Positions 36,496-41,640 are shown, counted from the first letter of the stretch. The stretch is 64,000 bases of DNA from an uncultured archaeon (GCA_964486045.1 CAZALK010000002.1:96001-160000); one strand, 5' to 3'. Translations and numbers: made by a program. The notes: generated from the sequence alone by a model not told the origin.

Positions 36496-37224
36496 ATTTC
36501 ATTTCCCAAAATTTCAAGATCAATTAATAAAGAAATAGAACATGTTAAAGTTCAATTTCTCACTGAAAAGTTAGAATTAATTTTAGATAGAGTTAAATGT
36601 GTAGGATGTGGGACTTGTGCTCGAGCCTGTCCCGAGGATGCTATTTCTCGGGGACCAGTAGGAACATCCCGGCGATTTCCAAGTTTAGAAGACATTATTC
36701 CGGAAGTTTATGACCCAAAAGCTTGCGTCTTCTGCGGGACATGTGTTTTTTGCTGCCCTTTTAGCGCTTTAACCCTCAAAATAGATGGTCCGGTAATTGA
36801 ATTAGAAAAAATTCAAATTGTAAAGGAAAGAGTTGTTCCTAAATTAGAGTTTGAAGCTAAAAAGATTATTAGCCATACAGGAATTGAGAGAGTTGTTAAA
36901 CAATATACAGATGGTAATATAAGTATTAATGATGAAGAATGCCCCGGAGGATGTCAGACTTGTTTCGAGGTATGCCCATCTGGTGCAATATCAATACCCA
37001 AAAAGTCTGACAAAGGATGGGAAAAAGTTCCGAATGTAGAAGTAGATAAAGAAAAATGTGTTTTTTGCGGTGCTTGTGATAATGGCTGTCCTACGGGAGC
37101 AATAAAATTAGAAATTACTGATGTCAATACTTCAGGAGAATCAATTGAGATGTTTTGGGTACCTCTTTTAAAAAGATTAAAAACATTAAGATGGAGTGAA
37201 ACATCAGAAGAGGAAAAAAAATGA
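36496..37224 (+). CDS. fwdF: FwdF-like polyferredoxin (4 clusters), missed by the ORF track; ATT start
   Basis: 242-codon open frame with CVGCGTCARACP, CVFCGTCVFCCP, CPGGCQTCFEVCP and CVFCGACDNGCP. It is preceded by GAGGTG-TGA-TAA-ATT, and its stop overlaps the fwdD ATG. Confidence 0.85.
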   Translation: MSFPKISRSINKEIEHVKVQFLTEKLELILDRVKCVGCGTCARACPEDAISRGPVGTSRRFPSLEDIIPEVYDPKACVFCGTCVFCCPFSALTLKIDGPVIELEKIQIVKERVVPKLEFEAKKIISHTGIERVVKQYTDGNISINDEECPGGCQTCFEVCPSGAISIPKKSDKGWEKVPNVEVDKEKCVFCGACDNGCPTGAIKLEITDVNTSGESIEMFWVPLLKRLKTLRWSETSEEEKK

Positions 37225-37616
37225 GCATCGATAATTTGGTTTTAATTACATGTCGTACTATTGATCAAGGCGTGGCACTTGAAGGAGGAAAGGTATCAAG
37301 AGAAAATGTTCGTGCTGCTGGGATCTGTGCTTTTGATAAAGAGGATTTCAAGAAATTGGATTGCCTCGTAGGGACTCCCGTAAAAGTTACAACCGATTTT
37401 GGGGAAGTTTTGGTTTATTCTACAATCTCAGATGAAGGACCTCATCCTGGTATTATTTTCATACCTATGGGACCTTGGGCTAATCAAGTTGTAAATCCTG
37501 ATTCACAATCTTGTGGAACTCCTACCTACAAAGGGATGAAGGCATCTGTAGAACCAATTCCAAATGGTAAAGTTCTAGGAGCGGTAGCTTTAATTAATAC
37601 ACTAAAAGAGGTGTAA
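37221..37616 (+). CDS. fwdD: Formylmethanofuran dehydrogenase subunit D
   Basis: LITCRTIDQG, FIPMGPWAN and GTPTYKG motifs. Confidence 0.9.
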   Translation: MSIDNLVLITCRTIDQGVALEGGKVSRENVRAAGICAFDKEDFKKLDCLVGTPVKVTTDFGEVLVYSTISDEGPHPGIIFIPMGPWANQVVNPDSQSCGTPTYKGMKASVEPIPNGKVLGAVALINTLKEV

Positions 37617-37618
37617 TT

Positions 37619-37672
37619 ATGGTAGAAAAAATCAAAACTACTTTAGATGTAGTTTGTCCCAAGTATAAATAA
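37619..37672 (+). pseudogene. Orphan 5' end of fwdB (MVEKIKTTLDVVCPKYK*)
   Basis: Matches the first 14 codons of fwdB at 39172; lies directly after fwdD with a GAGGTG SD. Confidence 0.85.
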
Positions 37673-37673
37673 G

Positions 37674-38984
37674 TTGAAAGATTTTAAGGTTAATGATTAT
37701 ATCACGCTGAGTTTAGAGGAAGGAAAAACCGTTATATACATCGCTGGAGAAAAATTTCAGCAATGTAAATTTTTGTTAATAACCATTCCTATCGAAAATG
37801 TTACCAATTTTGCTGATATTGAATCGGTGGATGAAGCGGCTGAAAGATTAGATTATTCCTTAGAATATAACCAAACTTATTATGAAATTCCTCCAGAAAC
37901 AGAATTTTGGGGACATTGTAGTAATTTGCAAGTGTGGGTAGAGAATGACTATGACACTCGGATCCTAAAAAGCGACTTGGCATTTCCCATTTTAAAAAGG
38001 TTAGTAGATGCTGGTAATCTAAAAGCTGAAAGAGTCTTCAAAGATGAAATAGCCAAGAGATTATCCAGTGGTTATCAAAACGTAATTGAATTTCTTTTCG
38101 AGGAAGAATATATCAAATATCTAGGTAATAAGGAGTTATGGAAAGTTATCATTCCTTCCCTGGAGAAATTAAGAAAAAAAAACTATCAAGTTCGTTGGTG
38201 GGTTTATAATACCGAATTACCCTTGTTGTTGTTGAGAAGACTTGTTGATATTGGTGATCCTCAAGCGTATCACTTATTAAAAGAAGTAATTATTGAAATT
38301 CTTCAAACAGGCAATGGTATGAATATCGGAATGTTATACGATGGTGAATATATAAATCTATTATCGAGAGAGGAATTCTGGAGGGTGTTCGGTAAAGATG
38401 GAGCAATTTTAAAAGAATTCGAAATTCAAATAAGACAATATAAAATAATAACAATTAAAAATTCAAATGGGATTGCTCTCATGAAAAAAAGGAAAAAAAC
38501 AAATGAGGAATCCTCTTATTTCAATTTAAGTAATGGGATATACATTAATCAGAGTCATATGGTTTTTACATACGAAAATGGTCATATTACAGGAATCGGA
38601 GTTTGGAGCGATGATAAAGATATATTTGAGGTTTCTCTATTGCCGAGTGAAGTGGTCCACTTAACACATCTAAAAGAATTAACTTTAAGTAATGTTAACC
38701 TTAAAAGAGTACCTTTAGATATAGATAACCTAAAATCCTTAAAATCTCTTTCTTTATCACATAACCTAATTTCTGCAGTACCAAAAAAAATTTGCAGATT
38801 AGAACTACTAAAATATTTAGGAATAGGTTGGAATAAAATAACTTCATTGCCAAAATGCCTTAAAAATTTATCTCTTTTACAAGAAATCCATATATTCCAT
38901 AATCCCTTAAATAAAAGAACGAGAGATTTTTTGAAAGGATTAGAAAGAGATAAAGAAGTAATATTACACTTAGACTCTCCCTAA
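37674..38984 (+). CDS. Leucine-rich-repeat protein (same family as 2390-3550), inserted into the fwd operon
   Basis: FQQCKFLL..EFWGHCSNLQVW N-terminal domain; C-terminal LRRs. Confidence 0.9.
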   Translation: MKDFKVNDYITLSLEEGKTVIYIAGEKFQQCKFLLITIPIENVTNFADIESVDEAAERLDYSLEYNQTYYEIPPETEFWGHCSNLQVWVENDYDTRILKSDLAFPILKRLVDAGNLKAERVFKDEIAKRLSSGYQNVIEFLFEEEYIKYLGNKELWKVIIPSLEKLRKKNYQVRWWVYNTELPLLLLRRLVDIGDPQAYHLLKEVIIEILQTGNGMNIGMLYDGEYINLLSREEFWRVFGKDGAILKEFEIQIRQYKIITIKNSNGIALMKKRKKTNEESSYFNLSNGIYINQSHMVFTYENGHITGIGVWSDDKDIFEVSLLPSEVVHLTHLKELTLSNVNLKRVPLDIDNLKSLKSLSLSHNLISAVPKKICRLELLKYLGIGWNKITSLPKCLKNLSLLQEIHIFHNPLNKRTRDFLKGLERDKEVILHLDSP

Positions 38985-39137
38985 TCAATGCTTAATTATC
39001 TAAAAGTTTTGTTTAGATAGGAGATATTATTGTTTTAGTATTGTTGCATTGTTCTTTTCATAAGAATTTTTTATAGGTTATACCTTTCAACGTTAAAGTT
39101 ATAAAAAGCAAGCGTTAAATTTTTACATAGTAACTAA

Positions 39138-39145
39138 TTTAAATA
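39138..39145 (+). promoter_or_regulatory. Putative TATA box for a leaderless or short-leader fwdB transcript
   Basis: TTTAAATA about 27 nt upstream of ATG 39172; no SD before that ATG. The AT-rich context weakens the call. Confidence 0.35.
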
Positions 39146-39171
39146 TTTAAAAAAACTAATAATAAAGAATC

Positions 39172-40526
39172 ATGGTTGAGAAGATTAAAACTAGCACCGA
39201 CGTGGTTTGTCCATTTTGCGGAAATAAACCGTAAATCGCTGTTTTACCGTAGCTTTATGTGACGACCTAGAAGTAGATATAGATATAAAAGAACAAAAGG
39301 TAGTAGAAGTTAGAAATGGGTGTCAGATCGGGTCAAAAAAATACTTTGCTTCAAATCCAAGCGAACATAGATACGAAAGACCTTTAATTAAAGATCACGG
39401 GTCTTATAAAGAAGTTTCATGGGAAGTAGCATTAGATAAGGCTGCTGATATTTTAGTAAAGGCTAAAAGACCCCTACTTTATGGTTTTTCAAGTACAGAG
39501 TGTGAAGCTCAAGGTAAAGGGGTAGAATTGGCGGAGATTTTAGGCTCTATTCTGGATAATACTGCTTCTGTTTGTCATGGACCATCACTAATAGCAATTC
39601 AAGAGGTTGGTTCTCCAACCTCAACTTTAGGTGAATATAAAAATCGGGCGGATCTTGTTGTTTTTTGGGGTTCTAATCCTGTTCACGCCCATCCCCGACA
39701 TCTAGGAAGATATAGTGAGTTCGTAAGAGGATATTTCAGAAAAGATGGGAGAAATGATAGATTTATAATCGTAGTTGATCCTAGAAATACCCATACTGCC
39801 CAGATAGCAGATCTATATGTTCAAGTAAACCCTAGTGAAGATTATGAATTAATCAATGCGATGCGGGCAATACTTAGAGGTGTTGAATTAGATGCAAAAG
39901 AGATTTCTGGAGTGTCAATGGAAAACATAATAGAGTTAGTAAATAAATTGAAATCCTGCAATTTTGGAGTTATATTTTTCGGAATGGGATTAACTCAATC
40001 GCTTTCTCACCACCGAAATGTTGATACAGCGATTTGTTTAGTAAGAGAATTAAATGACTATACTAAATTTTCATTAACAGCTATGCGTGGACATTATAAT
40101 GTTGCTGGAGCGAACCAAGTTTTCACATGGCAAACGGGATATCCGTATTCTATAGACTTTTCTAAAGGATATCCACGGTTTAACCCAGGAGAATTTTCTT
40201 CTGTTGATATATTGCTAAGAAACGAAATCGATGCTTTACTAATAGTTGCTTCTGATCCTGCTAGTAATTTTCCCGCTGCTGCCGTCAAAAATATGTTTAA
40301 ACATCCTTTTATTTCTATTGAACCACATCATACTCCAACTTCCGTAAATGCTGATGTAGTATTACCACCTGCTATTGCAGGAATTGAGTGTGAAGGTACA
40401 GCGTATCGTATGGACAGTGTTCCTCTCAGATTAAGAAAAGTGAAAGATGCTCCTGGGGAATGCTTAACCGATAAAGATATATTAGAGCGATTAATAGAGG
40501 TTGTAAAAAAAAAAAAAGGTGACTAG
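39172..40526 (+). CDS. fwdB: Formylmethanofuran dehydrogenase subunit B, join(39172-39223,39253-40526), 441 aa after removal of the 29-nt insert
   Basis: The spliced product has CPFCGTLCDD...NGC, TASVCHG (Cys, not Sec), WGSNPVHAHPRH, MRGHYNV and GTAYRMD. Confidence 0.85.
39224..39252 (+). other. Candidate 29-nt BHB/BHL-type mRNA intron in fwdB
   Basis: GCGG(39218-21) pairs with CCGT(39247-50). The 3-nt bulges are AA^A and AG^C, and the intron stem is TAAA/TTTA. Excision restores the frame and the GTLC motif. Confidence 0.8.
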
Positions 40527-40529
40527 ATT

Positions 40530-41381
40530 ATTGGAGAAATCAAATTAAAGCTAAAATTAGAACCCAAATTTCCTTTAGAAGCTGAAAATATAACTATAGA
40601 TAAGTTTATGGGAAAATCAGAATCAGAGATTAAGAATTTAACTGTTTATCATGGAAATGAAGAAAAGACTATTGGAAATTTCTTTGATGTTTCAGGAAAA
40701 GGAGAAGATTTAAATGATCTAAAGATATCCATTGAAGGCAATCTCTTAAAAGTTAAACGAATTGGAGAAAAAATGACAAATGGCGAAATCCTAATAAATG
40801 GTAATGTGGGAATGCATGTAGGAAATCGCATGACTGGTGGCAAAATATTAGTAAACGGAAATGCAGATGATTGGGCAGGTGCAATGTTAAATGGTGGTGA
40901 ATTAGAGATCACTAGAAATGCTGGGCATTATGTTGGTGCTGCTTATAGAGGTTTTTGGAAAGGAATGCAAAATGGTATAATAAAAGTTCATGGTAAAATA
41001 GGAGATGAAGCTTTGACATGGGTAAATGGTTCAAAACCCGCAAAAAGGTTTCCCACTTTAAAGTGTGGCAGTGCTGGATCATTTCTAGGTATTCATGGTC
41101 ATGGAGGTACTATTATTGTTGAAGGGGATTGTAATCGATGTATTGGGGCTGATCAAGTACGAGGAACAATAGTAGTTAAAGGAAAAGTATCTAAAATTCT
41201 TCCTTCTTATAAAAAAATTGGTGAAGTAAACGAGATTGAGTTAATGAGTGGGGAAAAAATTAAAGGAAAATTCTTCGAATATAGCGGAGATCATTCAGTA
41301 GAAAAAAATCATTCAAAAATTGATAAAAAAACAGGAGAAATATCAAACAGTTCTAATGGAAGATTATTTATTGCCGTTTAA
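40530..41381 (+). CDS. fwdC: Formylmethanofuran dehydrogenase subunit C; probable ATT start
   Basis: GXGXG beta-helix repeats and GAAYRGFWKGM. The conserved N-terminus (GEIKLKLKLEPKFPLEAENI) lies upstream of the first ATG, after an AGGTGA SD. Confidence 0.9.
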   Translation: MGEIKLKLKLEPKFPLEAENITIDKFMGKSESEIKNLTVYHGNEEKTIGNFFDVSGKGEDLNDLKISIEGNLLKVKRIGEKMTNGEILINGNVGMHVGNRMTGGKILVNGNADDWAGAMLNGGELEITRNAGHYVGAAYRGFWKGMQNGIIKVHGKIGDEALTWVNGSKPAKRFPTLKCGSAGSFLGIHGHGGTIIVEGDCNRCIGADQVRGTIVVKGKVSKILPSYKKIGEVNEIELMSGEKIKGKFFEYSGDHSVEKNHSKIDKKTGEISNSSNGRLFIAV

Positions 41382-41640
41382 ACAAAAATACTTCAATTTT
41401 CTCTTTCCTTTATTAATACAAATAACTTATGTTTTAACTATTAAGAAGTGCCATTATTTTAAAGTTTTAGACATTTTTGTCTTGGATATTTATTCTTGAA
41501 AACAATTACTTTTAAGTTATTTACTACTCTTTCCTCATTGAGTTAAGATATTTTAAAAAAATTCACAACTAAGATTTAACAACTTTTTTAAAAAATTTAA
41601 TATTAAAGCATATTATTAACTATAAAATCGGAGAAAAAAG

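What the first reader, a model, noticed from the sequence alone, without database searches (positions are those of the whole stretch)
39204..39267. Candidate bulge-helix-bulge mRNA intron inside the Fe-S motif of fwdB
Seen in sequence: from ATG 39172 the frame reads MVEKIKTSTDVVCPFCG-NKP-stop, while LCDD and the rest of FwdB continue intact in another frame 32 nt later. The extra sequence folds like an archaeal pre-tRNA splice junction. The central 4-bp helix is GCGG(39218-21, exon) with CCGU(39247-50, intron), the 5' bulge is AAA(39222-24), the intron-internal stem is UAAA/UUUA, and the 3' bulge is AGC(39251-53). Beyond three U-U mismatches there is an exon-exon stem of about 10 bp (GGUUUGUCCAU with AUGUGACGACC). 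Established knowledge: the archaeal splicing endonuclease EndA cuts after the second nucleotide of each bulge. Applying that rule (AA^A, AG^C) removes exactly 29 nt (ATAAACCGTAAATCGCTGTTTTACCGTAG) and gives GGA ACT TTA TGT, i.e. CPFCGTLCDD, the usual FwdB motif, in a 441-aa protein. Frame, residue count and residue identity are all restored. Archaeal mRNA introns of this type are known mainly from crenarchaeal cbf5. Inference: this Asgard-like archaeon splices a metabolic mRNA with EndA and an RtcB-type ligase, possibly as a post-transcriptional switch on a core CO2/C1 enzyme, and such introns may hide behind apparent frameshifts elsewhere in the genome. The 3' site is a relaxed (BHL-like) one.
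Basis: partly seen in the sequence, partly recalled or inferred. Interest (0 to 1): 0.96.

Follow-up and report, generated by a model that had tools for sequence, protein, structure and literature searches.

The report
tRNA-type intron splitting Asgard fwdB
The gene for a core CO2-fixing enzyme subunit (FwdB) of this Asgard (Promethearchaeota) archaeon is broken by a 29-base hairpin shaped like a tRNA intron. Ten related species carry such an insert at one of two sites while the protein stays under strong selection, so the mRNA is very probably cut and rejoined by the tRNA-splicing enzymes, which papers document for only two archaeal mRNAs.

Summary
From ATG 39172 the frame reads MVEKIKTSTDVVCPFCG-NKP-stop, and FwdB continues in another frame from 39255. 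Removing 39224-39252 (29 nt) gives CPFCGTLCDD in a 441-aa protein.

The insert is not an artefact or a decayed gene.
- Seven Promethearchaeota MAGs from several projects carry a 29- or 30-nt insert at exactly this site.
- Three others carry a different 29-nt insert 7 nt upstream.
- About 55 orthologues are uninterrupted.
- Exon 2 is under strong purifying selection in carriers (dN/dS 0.03-0.07, with dS up to 1.8), and exon 1 keeps its ATG and frame.

The structure fits an EndA substrate.
- The upstream-site insert folds, unconstrained, into an exact canonical bulge-helix-bulge motif.
- The site found here has a good 5' half and a relaxed 3' half.
- Its helices are supported by covariation (13 double-change cells against 0-2 in slid controls).
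- In every carrier the EndA ruler (4-bp helix, cut after the second bulge base) predicts the junction.

The genome encodes an alpha/beta EndA pair and RtcB. fwdA and cdhA carry similar 30- and 32-nt inserts.

No RNA data could be obtained, so splicing is inferred, not shown. The proposed regulatory switch has no support.

This scan has noted similar introns in many other Asgard genomes. In the papers I could search, only cbf5 and HVO_1309 are documented.

The parts
39172..39223 (+). fwdB exon 1: ATG, 17 codons (MVEKIKTSTDVVCPFCG) and the first base of the Thr codon
   Evidence: ATG, frame and the D-V-x-C-P-F-C-G residues are kept in all 7 carriers of this site, with synonymous differences.
39224..39252 (+). 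29-nt intervening sequence (candidate BHB/BHL intron). It shifts the frame and places TAA 39232-34 in the exon-1 frame.
   Evidence: Absent from about 55 orthologues. Present at the same site in 7 genomes, 29 or 30 nt long.
39253..40526 (+). fwdB exon 2 (CT of the Thr codon, LCDD... to the stop), 424 codons
   Evidence: TIGR03129 FwdB equivalog, 585 bits, profile positions 9-420. dN/dS 0.03-0.07.
39218..39221 (+). Central helix, exon strand (GCGG)
   Evidence: Pairs with 39247-50. Kept in all 7 carriers with G-C to G-U changes.
39247..39250 (+). Central helix, intron strand (CCGU)
39222..39224 (+). 5' bulge AAA; predicted cut after A39223
   Evidence: Unpaired in the consensus fold. The cut rule was checked on this genome's tRNA-Ser(GGA) intron.
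39251..39253 (+). 3' splice-site bases AGC; predicted cut after G39252. This half is relaxed: it sits in a 3x6 internal loop, and the first two bases can pair with UU 39216-17.
39225..39246 (+). Intron hairpin. The stem UAAA 39225-28 with UUUA 39243-46 is weak here but 6-9 bp in relatives.
   Evidence: Four stem pairs show compensatory changes across the carriers.
39204..39214 (+). Exon-exon (outer) helix, 5' strand
   Evidence: Pairs with 39257-67. One G-C to A-U compensatory change in G047. The helix is largely pre-encoded by the protein motif.
39257..39267 (+). Exon-exon (outer) helix, 3' strand
39229..39232 (+). Second CCGU inside the intron. It gives a competing hairpin with GCGG in the MFE fold of this genome only.
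   Evidence: Absent from the other six carriers.

Best explanation
Bases 39224-39252 are a tRNA-type (bulge-helix-bulge, here half-relaxed) intron in the fwdB pre-mRNA of a Promethearchaeota (Asgard) archaeon.

Proposed mechanism:
1. The transcript folds so that an exon-exon helix (39204-14 with 39257-67) brings the two splice sites together.
2. A 4-bp helix forms between exon GCGG and intron CCGU. It is flanked by the AAA bulge with the intron hairpin on one side, and by a loosened 3-base site (AGC) on the other.
3. The heteromeric (alpha-beta)2 splicing endonuclease cuts after the second base of each site, after A39223 and after G39252.
4. RtcB joins the exons.
5. The mature mRNA encodes a 441-aa FwdB with an intact CPFCGTLCDD iron-sulfur motif.

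Shown: the insert, its exact collinearity with insert-free orthologues, the conserved and covarying structure, selection on both exons, and the presence of the enzymes. Inferred: the cleavage and ligation themselves.

The intron looks like a tolerated, sporadically lost or spread element rather than a regulator.
For: 1. Collinearity. Sixteen of the first 19 same-genus orthologues, and about 55 overall, read tgYggNacN-YTN-TGY-GAY-GAY without interruption.

2. Recurrence. The same site carries a 29- or 30-nt insert in 7 genomes: G000, G022, G019, G047, L112, L132 and L135. These come from different projects. The insert ends are conserved and the middles differ.

3. A second site. Seven nt upstream, G059, G048 and G065 carry a different 29-nt insert. 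The unconstrained MFE fold of G059 and of G065 is an exact canonical hBHBh' motif: outer helix CUGC/GUGG, bulge UUA, central helix CCGU/GCGG, bulge UCU, intron stem. The chance of that motif at a fixed register is 1.9e-5.

4. The ruler. In all 10 carriers the distance between the starts of the two central-helix strands equals the insert length (29 or 30). The EndA rule therefore predicts the junction that the orthologues demand.

5. Covariation for site 1. 92% of cells are paired, against 33-49% in slid controls. There are 13 double-change cells against 0-2, and 0 of 500 shuffles reach the observed value.

6. Selection. Exon 2 has dN/dS 0.03-0.07 with dS 1.1-1.8 between carriers and no stop in 423 codons. 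Exon 1 keeps its ATG and frame.

7. No internal start. The exon-2 frame has no start codon before 39528. Unspliced, the Fe-S domain could not be made.

8. Enzymes. The genome has two EndA homologues of about 200 aa. One has Y/H/K and the other lacks the His. It also has one RtcB. Asgard EndA is published as (alpha-beta)2 with the L1 loop that allows relaxed substrates (PMC5829648).

9. In-genome control. The tRNA-Ser(GGA) intron obeys the same cut rule.

10. Other genes. fwdA carries a 30-nt canonical BHB insert with a TAA, and cdhA carries a 32-nt relaxed one. The fwdA insert is present in 3 of the 44 genomes of the genus that matched.
Against: There is no RNA evidence. No RNA run was listed for this DNA, so excision, ligation and a circular intron are unobserved.

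The window's own copy folds weakly: the energy z-score is -0.5 and the MFE prefers a competing hairpin.

The 3' site is not a clean 3-base bulge. In the consensus fold the central helix can extend to 6 bp, which would have to open for a 4-bp ruler. Some carriers have an extra unpaired A or a G-A mismatch in the central helix.

For 6 of the 7 carriers the insert boundaries can slide by up to 2 bases without changing the product. Agreement with the ruler is therefore less stringent at site 1 than at site 2.

My ab initio genome scans found no excess of strict BHB motifs over a null.
Confidence: 0.8

Rival explanations
1. Translational recoding: the ribosome passes the insert by a -1 frameshift or by a gene-60/byp-like hop, and the mRNA is never spliced.
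For: The insert is a short hairpin with an early stop in the exon-1 frame, as in known bypass elements (own knowledge). In G019 an A7 run precedes the stop. In most site-1 carriers the exon-2 frame is open through much of the insert (read).
Against: The window in which a -1 shift could join the two frames is only 1-2 codons and is not slippery. At site 2 it is the single codon AGA, between a UAG in one frame and a UAG in the other (read). In this window it is AAA-CCG, between TAA 39225-27 and TAA 39232-34. No matching take-off and landing codons are conserved. A frameshift product would put 9-11 poorly conserved residues inside the CxxCxxxC cluster motif. Recoding also does not explain the bulge-helix-bulge geometry, or why the EndA ruler predicts the junction at both sites.
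Confidence: 0.06
2. The insert is removed from the RNA, but not by EndA and RtcB. Another nuclease/ligase pair, or a self-cleaving activity, does it.
For: The 3' site at site 1 departs from the canonical bulge. No enzymology is available.
Against: 29-30 nt is far too small for a group I or group II intron, and no Rfam family matches. Site 2 is a textbook EndA substrate. The 4-bp ruler fits all carriers. The only mRNA splicing documented in archaea is EndA-dependent (PMC10485636, PMC7714728).
Confidence: 0.05
3. This fwdB copy is an inactivated gene (pseudogene). The second, distant fwd operon on contig C3 does the work.
For: A paralogous fwdB (33% identity) and fwdA exist at G000:C3:147936-151251. 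The locus has been rearranged: there is a 5' stub plus an LRR gene.
Against: Ten species keep an insert, with 423 stop-free codons and dN/dS 0.03-0.07 at saturated dS. That matches insert-free orthologues. Exon 1 stays in frame with its ATG. The insert itself keeps a covarying structure.
Confidence: 0.03
4. FwdB is made from exon 2 alone, using an unusual start codon in or after the insert, or as two separate polypeptides.
Against: This would drop two of the four cluster cysteines. It leaves the conservation of exon 1, and of its frame, unexplained. There is no canonical start before 39528.
Confidence: 0.03
5. Assembly or sequencing artefact.
For: The genome is a MAG with 7.8% estimated contamination.
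Against: Diverged versions of the insert sit at the same site in independent assemblies from different projects.
Confidence: 0.01

Closest known systems
BHB intron in the cbf5 pre-mRNA of Crenarchaeota (Watanabe 2002; Yoshinari 2006; Yokobori 2009, as cited in PMC5829648 and PMC10485636)
   Same: It is a short intervening sequence inside a protein-coding region, with a relaxed bulge-helix-bulge fold at the exon-intron junctions. The host has a hetero-oligomeric (alpha-beta)2 endonuclease. The intron is present in only some related species, reflecting gain and loss.
   Different: The phylum differs (Asgard/Promethearchaeota) and so does the gene (a metabolic enzyme of the CO2/C1 pathway). The intron is 29-30 nt. 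Two alternative intron sites lie 7 nt apart in one motif. cbf5 splicing has been shown experimentally; this one has not.
HVO_1309 mRNA of Haloferax volcanii (PMC7714728; PMC10485636)
   Same: It is an mRNA with a BHB motif that is cut by the splicing endonuclease.
   Different: That intron lies in the 5' UTR, not in the coding frame. The host enzyme is the alpha2 type, which needs canonical motifs.
Archaeal pre-tRNA introns, including the heavily interrupted tRNA genes of Asgard archaea (bioRxiv 10.64898/2026.10.13.758758)
   Same: The motif and cut rule are the same, as checked here on tRNA-Ser(GGA). Size, patchy gain and loss, and multiple positions within one gene are also shared.
   Different: The host RNA is a messenger. 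The intron has to restore a reading frame, not a tRNA fold.
Programmed translational bypassing (T4 gene 60; mitochondrial byps of Magnusiomyces). This comparison is from my own knowledge.
   Same: Short hairpin inserts occur in coding sequence, are sporadic among relatives and begin with a stop.
   Different: Bypass needs matched take-off and landing codons, which are absent here. It has no bulge-helix-bulge geometry.

Membership tests
Archaeal BHB/BHL intron spliced by EndA and RtcB (pre-mRNA class, cbf5-like) | Two 3-nt bulges on opposite strands separated by a 4-bp helix, or the relaxed form in which one bulge is replaced by a loop | tested here: met
   Site 2 (G059, G065) is exactly canonical in the unconstrained MFE fold. 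Site 1, which includes this window, has a good 5' bulge, a 4-bp helix and an intron hairpin. Its 3' site is relaxed.
Archaeal BHB/BHL intron spliced by EndA and RtcB (pre-mRNA class, cbf5-like) | Cutting after the second base of each bulge gives the exact junction of the uninterrupted gene | tested here: met
   Removal of 39224-52 gives CPFCGTLCDD as in about 55 orthologues. The rule holds for the 29- and 30-nt variants and for site 2. The rule itself was checked on tRNA-Ser(GGA).
Archaeal BHB/BHL intron spliced by EndA and RtcB (pre-mRNA class, cbf5-like) | Helices maintained by compensatory change | tested here: met
   Five pairs show double changes and 13 cells do, against 0-2 in slid controls. 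0 of 500 shuffles reach the observed value. There are only 7 sequences, and they are related.
Archaeal BHB/BHL intron spliced by EndA and RtcB (pre-mRNA class, cbf5-like) | The host encodes a splicing endonuclease able to cut relaxed motifs, and an RtcB ligase | tested here: met
   Two PF01974 proteins of 201 and 200 aa were found. One has the Y/H/K residues and the other lacks the His. RtcB scores 557 bits. [quoted passage not shown]
Archaeal BHB/BHL intron spliced by EndA and RtcB (pre-mRNA class, cbf5-like) | The intron is actually excised: spliced transcript, circular or linear free intron | not testable with these tools
   No RNA holder was listed for this DNA.
Formylmethanofuran dehydrogenase subunit B (TIGR03129) | Score above the curated equivalog cut-off, with an N-terminal Cys cluster motif | tested here: met
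   Exon 2 alone scores 585 bits (cut-off 327.8) over profile positions 9-420. The missing first 8 positions are those encoded by exon 1. The insert-free orthologue matches positions 1-420.
Programmed -1 ribosomal frameshift | A slippery heptamer inside the overlap of the two open frames | tested here: not met
   The overlap is 1-2 codons and is not slippery: AAA-CCG here and AGA at site 2. Only G019 has an A-run.
Translational bypass (gene 60 / byp type) | Matching take-off and landing codons flanking the gap | tested here: not met
   No conserved matching pair is seen in the 10 carriers.
Group I / group II self-splicing introns | A ribozyme core of hundreds of nucleotides | tested here: not met
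   The insert is 29-30 nt and has no Rfam match.

The most novel reading that the evidence does not exclude
Promethearchaeota may harbour a dynamic population of 29-32-nt endonuclease-spliced micro-introns in ordinary protein-coding genes. In this genome fwdB, fwdA and cdhA all belong to one C1 pathway and all carry one.

These introns would be gained, lost or moved between species on a short evolutionary scale. They would settle where the coding sequence already forms an exon-exon hairpin. That would explain two independent intron sites 7 nt apart in the FwdB Fe-S motif.

On this reading, 'genes in pieces' that need enzymatic mRNA splicing would be routine in the closest prokaryotic relatives of eukaryotes.
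Probability: 0.5. Interest if true: 0.9.

Novelty: new member of a known kind. Interest (0 to 1): 0.8.

Why it matters
Published work documents endonuclease-dependent mRNA splicing in archaea for two genes only: cbf5 (in the coding region) and HVO_1309 (in the 5' UTR). A recent review expects that more remain to be found (PMC10485636).

Here a core enzyme of the Wood-Ljungdahl/C1 pathway could not be made without such splicing. The organism belongs to the lineage closest to eukaryotes.

The species-level presence and absence, and the two alternative sites, give a natural experiment on how these introns arise and vanish.

There is also a practical consequence. Gene callers will report such genes as frameshifted, truncated or missing, which distorts metabolic reconstructions of Asgard MAGs. 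In this genome fwdB would be called from TTG 39528 and would lack its Fe-S domain.

Tried and rejected
RNA evidence: for window 37600-41400, no RNA holder was listed. Read laying therefore could not be used.

Ab initio census of BHB introns in the whole genome:
- I scanned for a strict motif (4/4 central helix, contiguous intron stem) combined with an ORF-merging filter. It gave 67,987 hits against 68,418 in a displaced-structure null. No length class or stringency showed an excess.
- The scan finds fwdB but misses fwdA, whose stem has a mismatch next to the bulge.
- A second design took in-frame stop clusters flanked by at least 100 open codons on each side (398 places). It showed no excess of strict BHB motifs or of local folding energy over shifted controls.
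- Conclusion: these filters are at once too strict for real relaxed introns and too loose against noise. I cannot size the intron population.

ARAGORN as an in-genome catalogue of tRNA introns was mostly unusable. It called 31 genes, many of them dubious, such as 'tRNA-Pyl' and 'tRNA-Stop'. Only tRNA-Ser(GGA) served as a clean control.

Mosaic test: I asked whether the 5' part of this genome's exon 2 is closer to G022, which shares the upstream region. Sliding-window identity gave no signal.

Folding energy as evidence was rejected. Z-scores run from +0.2 to -3.9 among carriers, so geometry and covariation carry the argument.

The competing hairpin as a splicing switch was also rejected. The second CCGU exists only in this genome.

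Rfam gave no relevant match. Literature searches for Asgard or Lokiarchaeal mRNA introns found nothing.

Full report
**1. The observation**

The sequence is as described.
- ATG 39172 opens MVEKIKTSTDVVCPFCG. The frame then runs through AAT AAA CCG into TAA at 39232-34.
- The rest of FwdB (LCDDLEVDIDIK... to the stop at 40526) lies in the frame one base back.
- That frame is closed upstream by TAA 39225-27. It has no ATG, GTG or TTG before 39528.
- Exon 2 alone scores 585 bits against the FwdB equivalog TIGR03129 (cut-off 327.8), but only from profile position 9.
- An uninterrupted orthologue (G002, 91% identical) matches from position 1. It reads VVCPFCGTLCDD.
- Removing 39224-39252 gives exactly that motif, and a 441-aa product.

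**2. Organism and context**

The window is G000:C2:96001-160000 of a 5.18-Mb, 45-contig genome. The closest fwdB loci in public genomes are titled Promethearchaeota or Promethearchaeia, that is Asgard, formerly Lokiarchaeota.

The gene sits among fwdD (37221-37616), a GXGXG protein that is probably fwdC, and hydrogenase genes.

Between fwdD and fwdB lie a 14-codon stub of an older fwdB 5' end (37619-37660) and an LRR gene (37674-38984). The active fwdB has its own upstream region, which G022 shares.

A distant second fwdB/fwdA pair lies on contig C3.

**3. Comparison with relatives: the decisive evidence**

Most of the same-genus and other Promethearchaeota orthologues examined (about 55) are uninterrupted at this point.

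Seven carry an insert at exactly this site: G000, G022, G019, G047, L112, L132 and L135.
- The insert is 29 nt in five of them and 30 nt in two.
- The ends are conserved: GCGG-AA|A(U)UAAA at the 5' end and UUUA-YCGU-AR|C at the 3' end. The middles are quite different.

Three further genomes (G059, G048, G065) carry an unrelated 29-nt insert 7 nt upstream, between the Phe and Cys codons of CPF|CGT.

These assemblies come from several independent projects, which excludes an assembly artefact.

**4. The gene is alive in carriers**

- Exon 2 has no stop in 423 codons.
- Its dN/dS is 0.03-0.07, both among carriers and between carriers and their nearest insert-free relatives. dS among carriers is 1.1-1.8.
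- Exon 1 keeps its ATG, its frame and the D-V-x-C-P-F-C-G residues, with synonymous differences.

A pseudogene would not look like this. Exon 1 would also not be conserved in frame if it were not joined to exon 2.

**5. Structure**

*Site 2.* The unconstrained minimum-energy folds of G059 and G065 are the textbook hBHBh' motif: outer helix CUGC/GUGG and beyond, bulge UUA, 4-bp helix CCGU/GCGG, bulge UCU, and a 5-bp intron stem.
- Its insert boundaries cannot slide.
- Cutting after the second base of each bulge removes exactly the 29 nt.
- In this genome that full motif occurs at 1.9e-5 per position at a fixed register.

*Site 1.* Six of the seven MFE folds, and the RNAalifold consensus, share one architecture: an exon-exon helix, a central helix, a 3-4-base A-rich 5' bulge and an intron hairpin of 4-9 bp.

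Counting pairs on that consensus gives:

| Measure | Observed | Slid controls / shuffles |
|---|---|---|
| Cells paired | 92% | 33-49% |
| Pairs with compensatory change (four in the hairpin) | 5 | 0-2 |
| Double-change cells | 13 | 0-2 |
| Shuffles reaching the observed value | | 0 of 500 |

In every carrier the distance from the start of the exon strand of the central helix to the start of its intron strand equals the insert length, 29 or 30. The 4-bp ruler of the endonuclease therefore predicts the junction each time.

*Weak points at site 1.*
- The 3' site is not a clean bulge.
- In the consensus the two bases before the cut can pair and lengthen the central helix to 6 bp.
- Some carriers have an extra unpaired A or a G-A mismatch.
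- The window's own copy is the weakest (z = -0.5), and its MFE prefers a competing hairpin with a second CCGU at 39229-32. That second CCGU is absent from all other carriers, so I do not read it as a switch.

**6. The enzymes**

The genome has two PF01974 endonuclease homologues of about 200 aa. One carries the Tyr/His/Lys residues. The other lacks the His, as expected of a structural beta subunit. It also has one RtcB.

Published work places Asgard archaea among the holders of (alpha-beta)2 EndA with the L1 loop. That is the type able to cut relaxed motifs, and the type linked to cbf5 pre-mRNA splicing (PMC5829648).

As an in-genome control of the cut rule, the tRNA-Ser(GGA) gene on C5 has an 8-bp outer helix, central helix UUGG/CCAG, and bulges AG|C and AA|A. 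This places the cuts at the 37/38 position.

**7. Rivals**

*-1 frameshift.* It would have to occur within the 1-2 codons between the stop of one frame and the stop of the other: AAA-CCG here and AGA alone at site 2. These codons are not slippery. The product would carry 9-11 poorly conserved residues inside the CxxCxxxC motif.

*Bypass.* This needs matched take-off and landing codons, and none are conserved.

Neither rival explains the bulge-helix-bulge geometry or the ruler.

*Other rivals.* Group I and group II introns are excluded by size, and no Rfam family matches. Translation of exon 2 alone lacks a start codon and would lose two cluster cysteines.

**8. Distribution**

On a tree built from exon 2 only, the three site-2 carriers form one group. 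The seven site-1 carriers need seven changes. For the four in the genus, the AU test rejects a single clade (p = 2.7e-7).

Because the inserts share their end sequences, they are homologous. The pattern therefore means many precise losses, or spread by recombination. I could not decide between these. A sliding-window test for a transferred 5' segment was negative.

The outer exon-exon helix is largely dictated by the protein motif itself. Insert-free genes already form 8-11 of its 12 pairs, and carriers form 11-12. This may explain why this spot was colonised twice.

The patchiness argues against a conserved regulatory role.

**9. Other genes in the same genome**

- *fwdA* (C20:4147-4176, minus strand) holds a 30-nt in-frame insert with a TAA and a canonical motif: GGAC/GUUC, CUUG/CAAG, bulges GGU and ACA. 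Removal gives ...TADGPWEFALHHLGG. The insert is present in only 3 of the 44 genomes of the genus that matched.
- *cdhA* (C22:24549-24580, minus strand) holds a 32-nt relaxed insert. Its removal joins the two HMM-matched pieces in frame. A further TAG interrupts the first piece.

My attempts to count such introns genome-wide from motif plus ORF logic showed no excess over null controls. The size of the population is unknown.

**10. What is known**

The papers I could search document endonuclease-dependent splicing of archaeal mRNA only for cbf5 in Crenarchaeota and for the 5' UTR of HVO_1309 in Haloferax (PMC7714728, PMC10485636). Nothing was found on Asgard mRNAs.

Earlier unchecked notes of this scan report similar candidates in this genome and in at least 37 other Asgard genomes. 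I used them as leads only, and verified fwdA and cdhA myself.

**Verdict**

This is a real, conserved, structured intervening sequence. It is very probably removed by EndA and RtcB (confidence 0.8). It is a new member of the known class of BHB pre-mRNA introns. RNA-level proof is lacking.

Noticed in passing
L052:1439-1518, L061:833-912, L062:1554-1633(-): A second fwdB intron site lies 7 nt upstream of the one in this window, in G059, G048 and G065. It is a different 29-nt insert between the Phe and Cys codons, and it folds as an exact canonical BHB.
   Followed up: yes
G000:C20:4147-4176 (minus strand; L066:2223-2252): fwdA carries a 30-nt in-frame insert with a TAA and a canonical BHB (CUUG/CAAG, bulges GGU and ACA). 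It is present only in G000, G016 and G063 among the 44 genomes of the genus that matched.
   Followed up: partly
G000:C22:24549-24580 (minus strand; L070/L071): cdhA is split by a 32-nt relaxed BHB-like insert whose removal joins the two pieces in frame. A further in-frame TAG interrupts the N-terminal piece (C22:24581-25084).
   Followed up: partly
window 37619-37672 and 37674-38984: A 14-codon stub of an older fwdB 5' end (MVEKIKTTLDVVCP, then KYK-stop) sits directly after fwdD and is followed by an LRR-repeat gene. The active fwdB start is only about 71% identical to the stub and has its own upstream region, which G022 shares. In most relatives fwdD abuts fwdB.
   Followed up: partly
window 39196-39275 and orthologues: The exon-exon helix around the intron is largely pre-encoded by the D-V-V-C-P ... 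L-C-D-D codons. Insert-free genes already form 8-11 of its 12 pairs. It may be a landing pad for introns.
   Followed up: partly
G000:C3:147936-151251 (L032, L067); G000:C2:12684-13343 (L068): A second, distant fwdB (33% identity) and fwdA lie next to each other and are uninterrupted. There is also a partial fwdA-like copy (profile positions 334-554) on C2, outside the window.
   Followed up: no
whole genome G000: ARAGORN finds only 31 tRNA genes. Twenty are called with introns, and many calls are dubious. This fits the heavily interrupted tRNA genes reported for Asgard archaea.
   Followed up: no
G000:C40: Three stretches on this contig (near 860 and 3583 on the minus strand, 3705 on the plus strand) look G+C-rich by eye, unlike the A+T-rich sequence read elsewhere in this genome. 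It may be a contaminant contig; estimated contamination is 7.8%. Composition was not computed.
   Followed up: no
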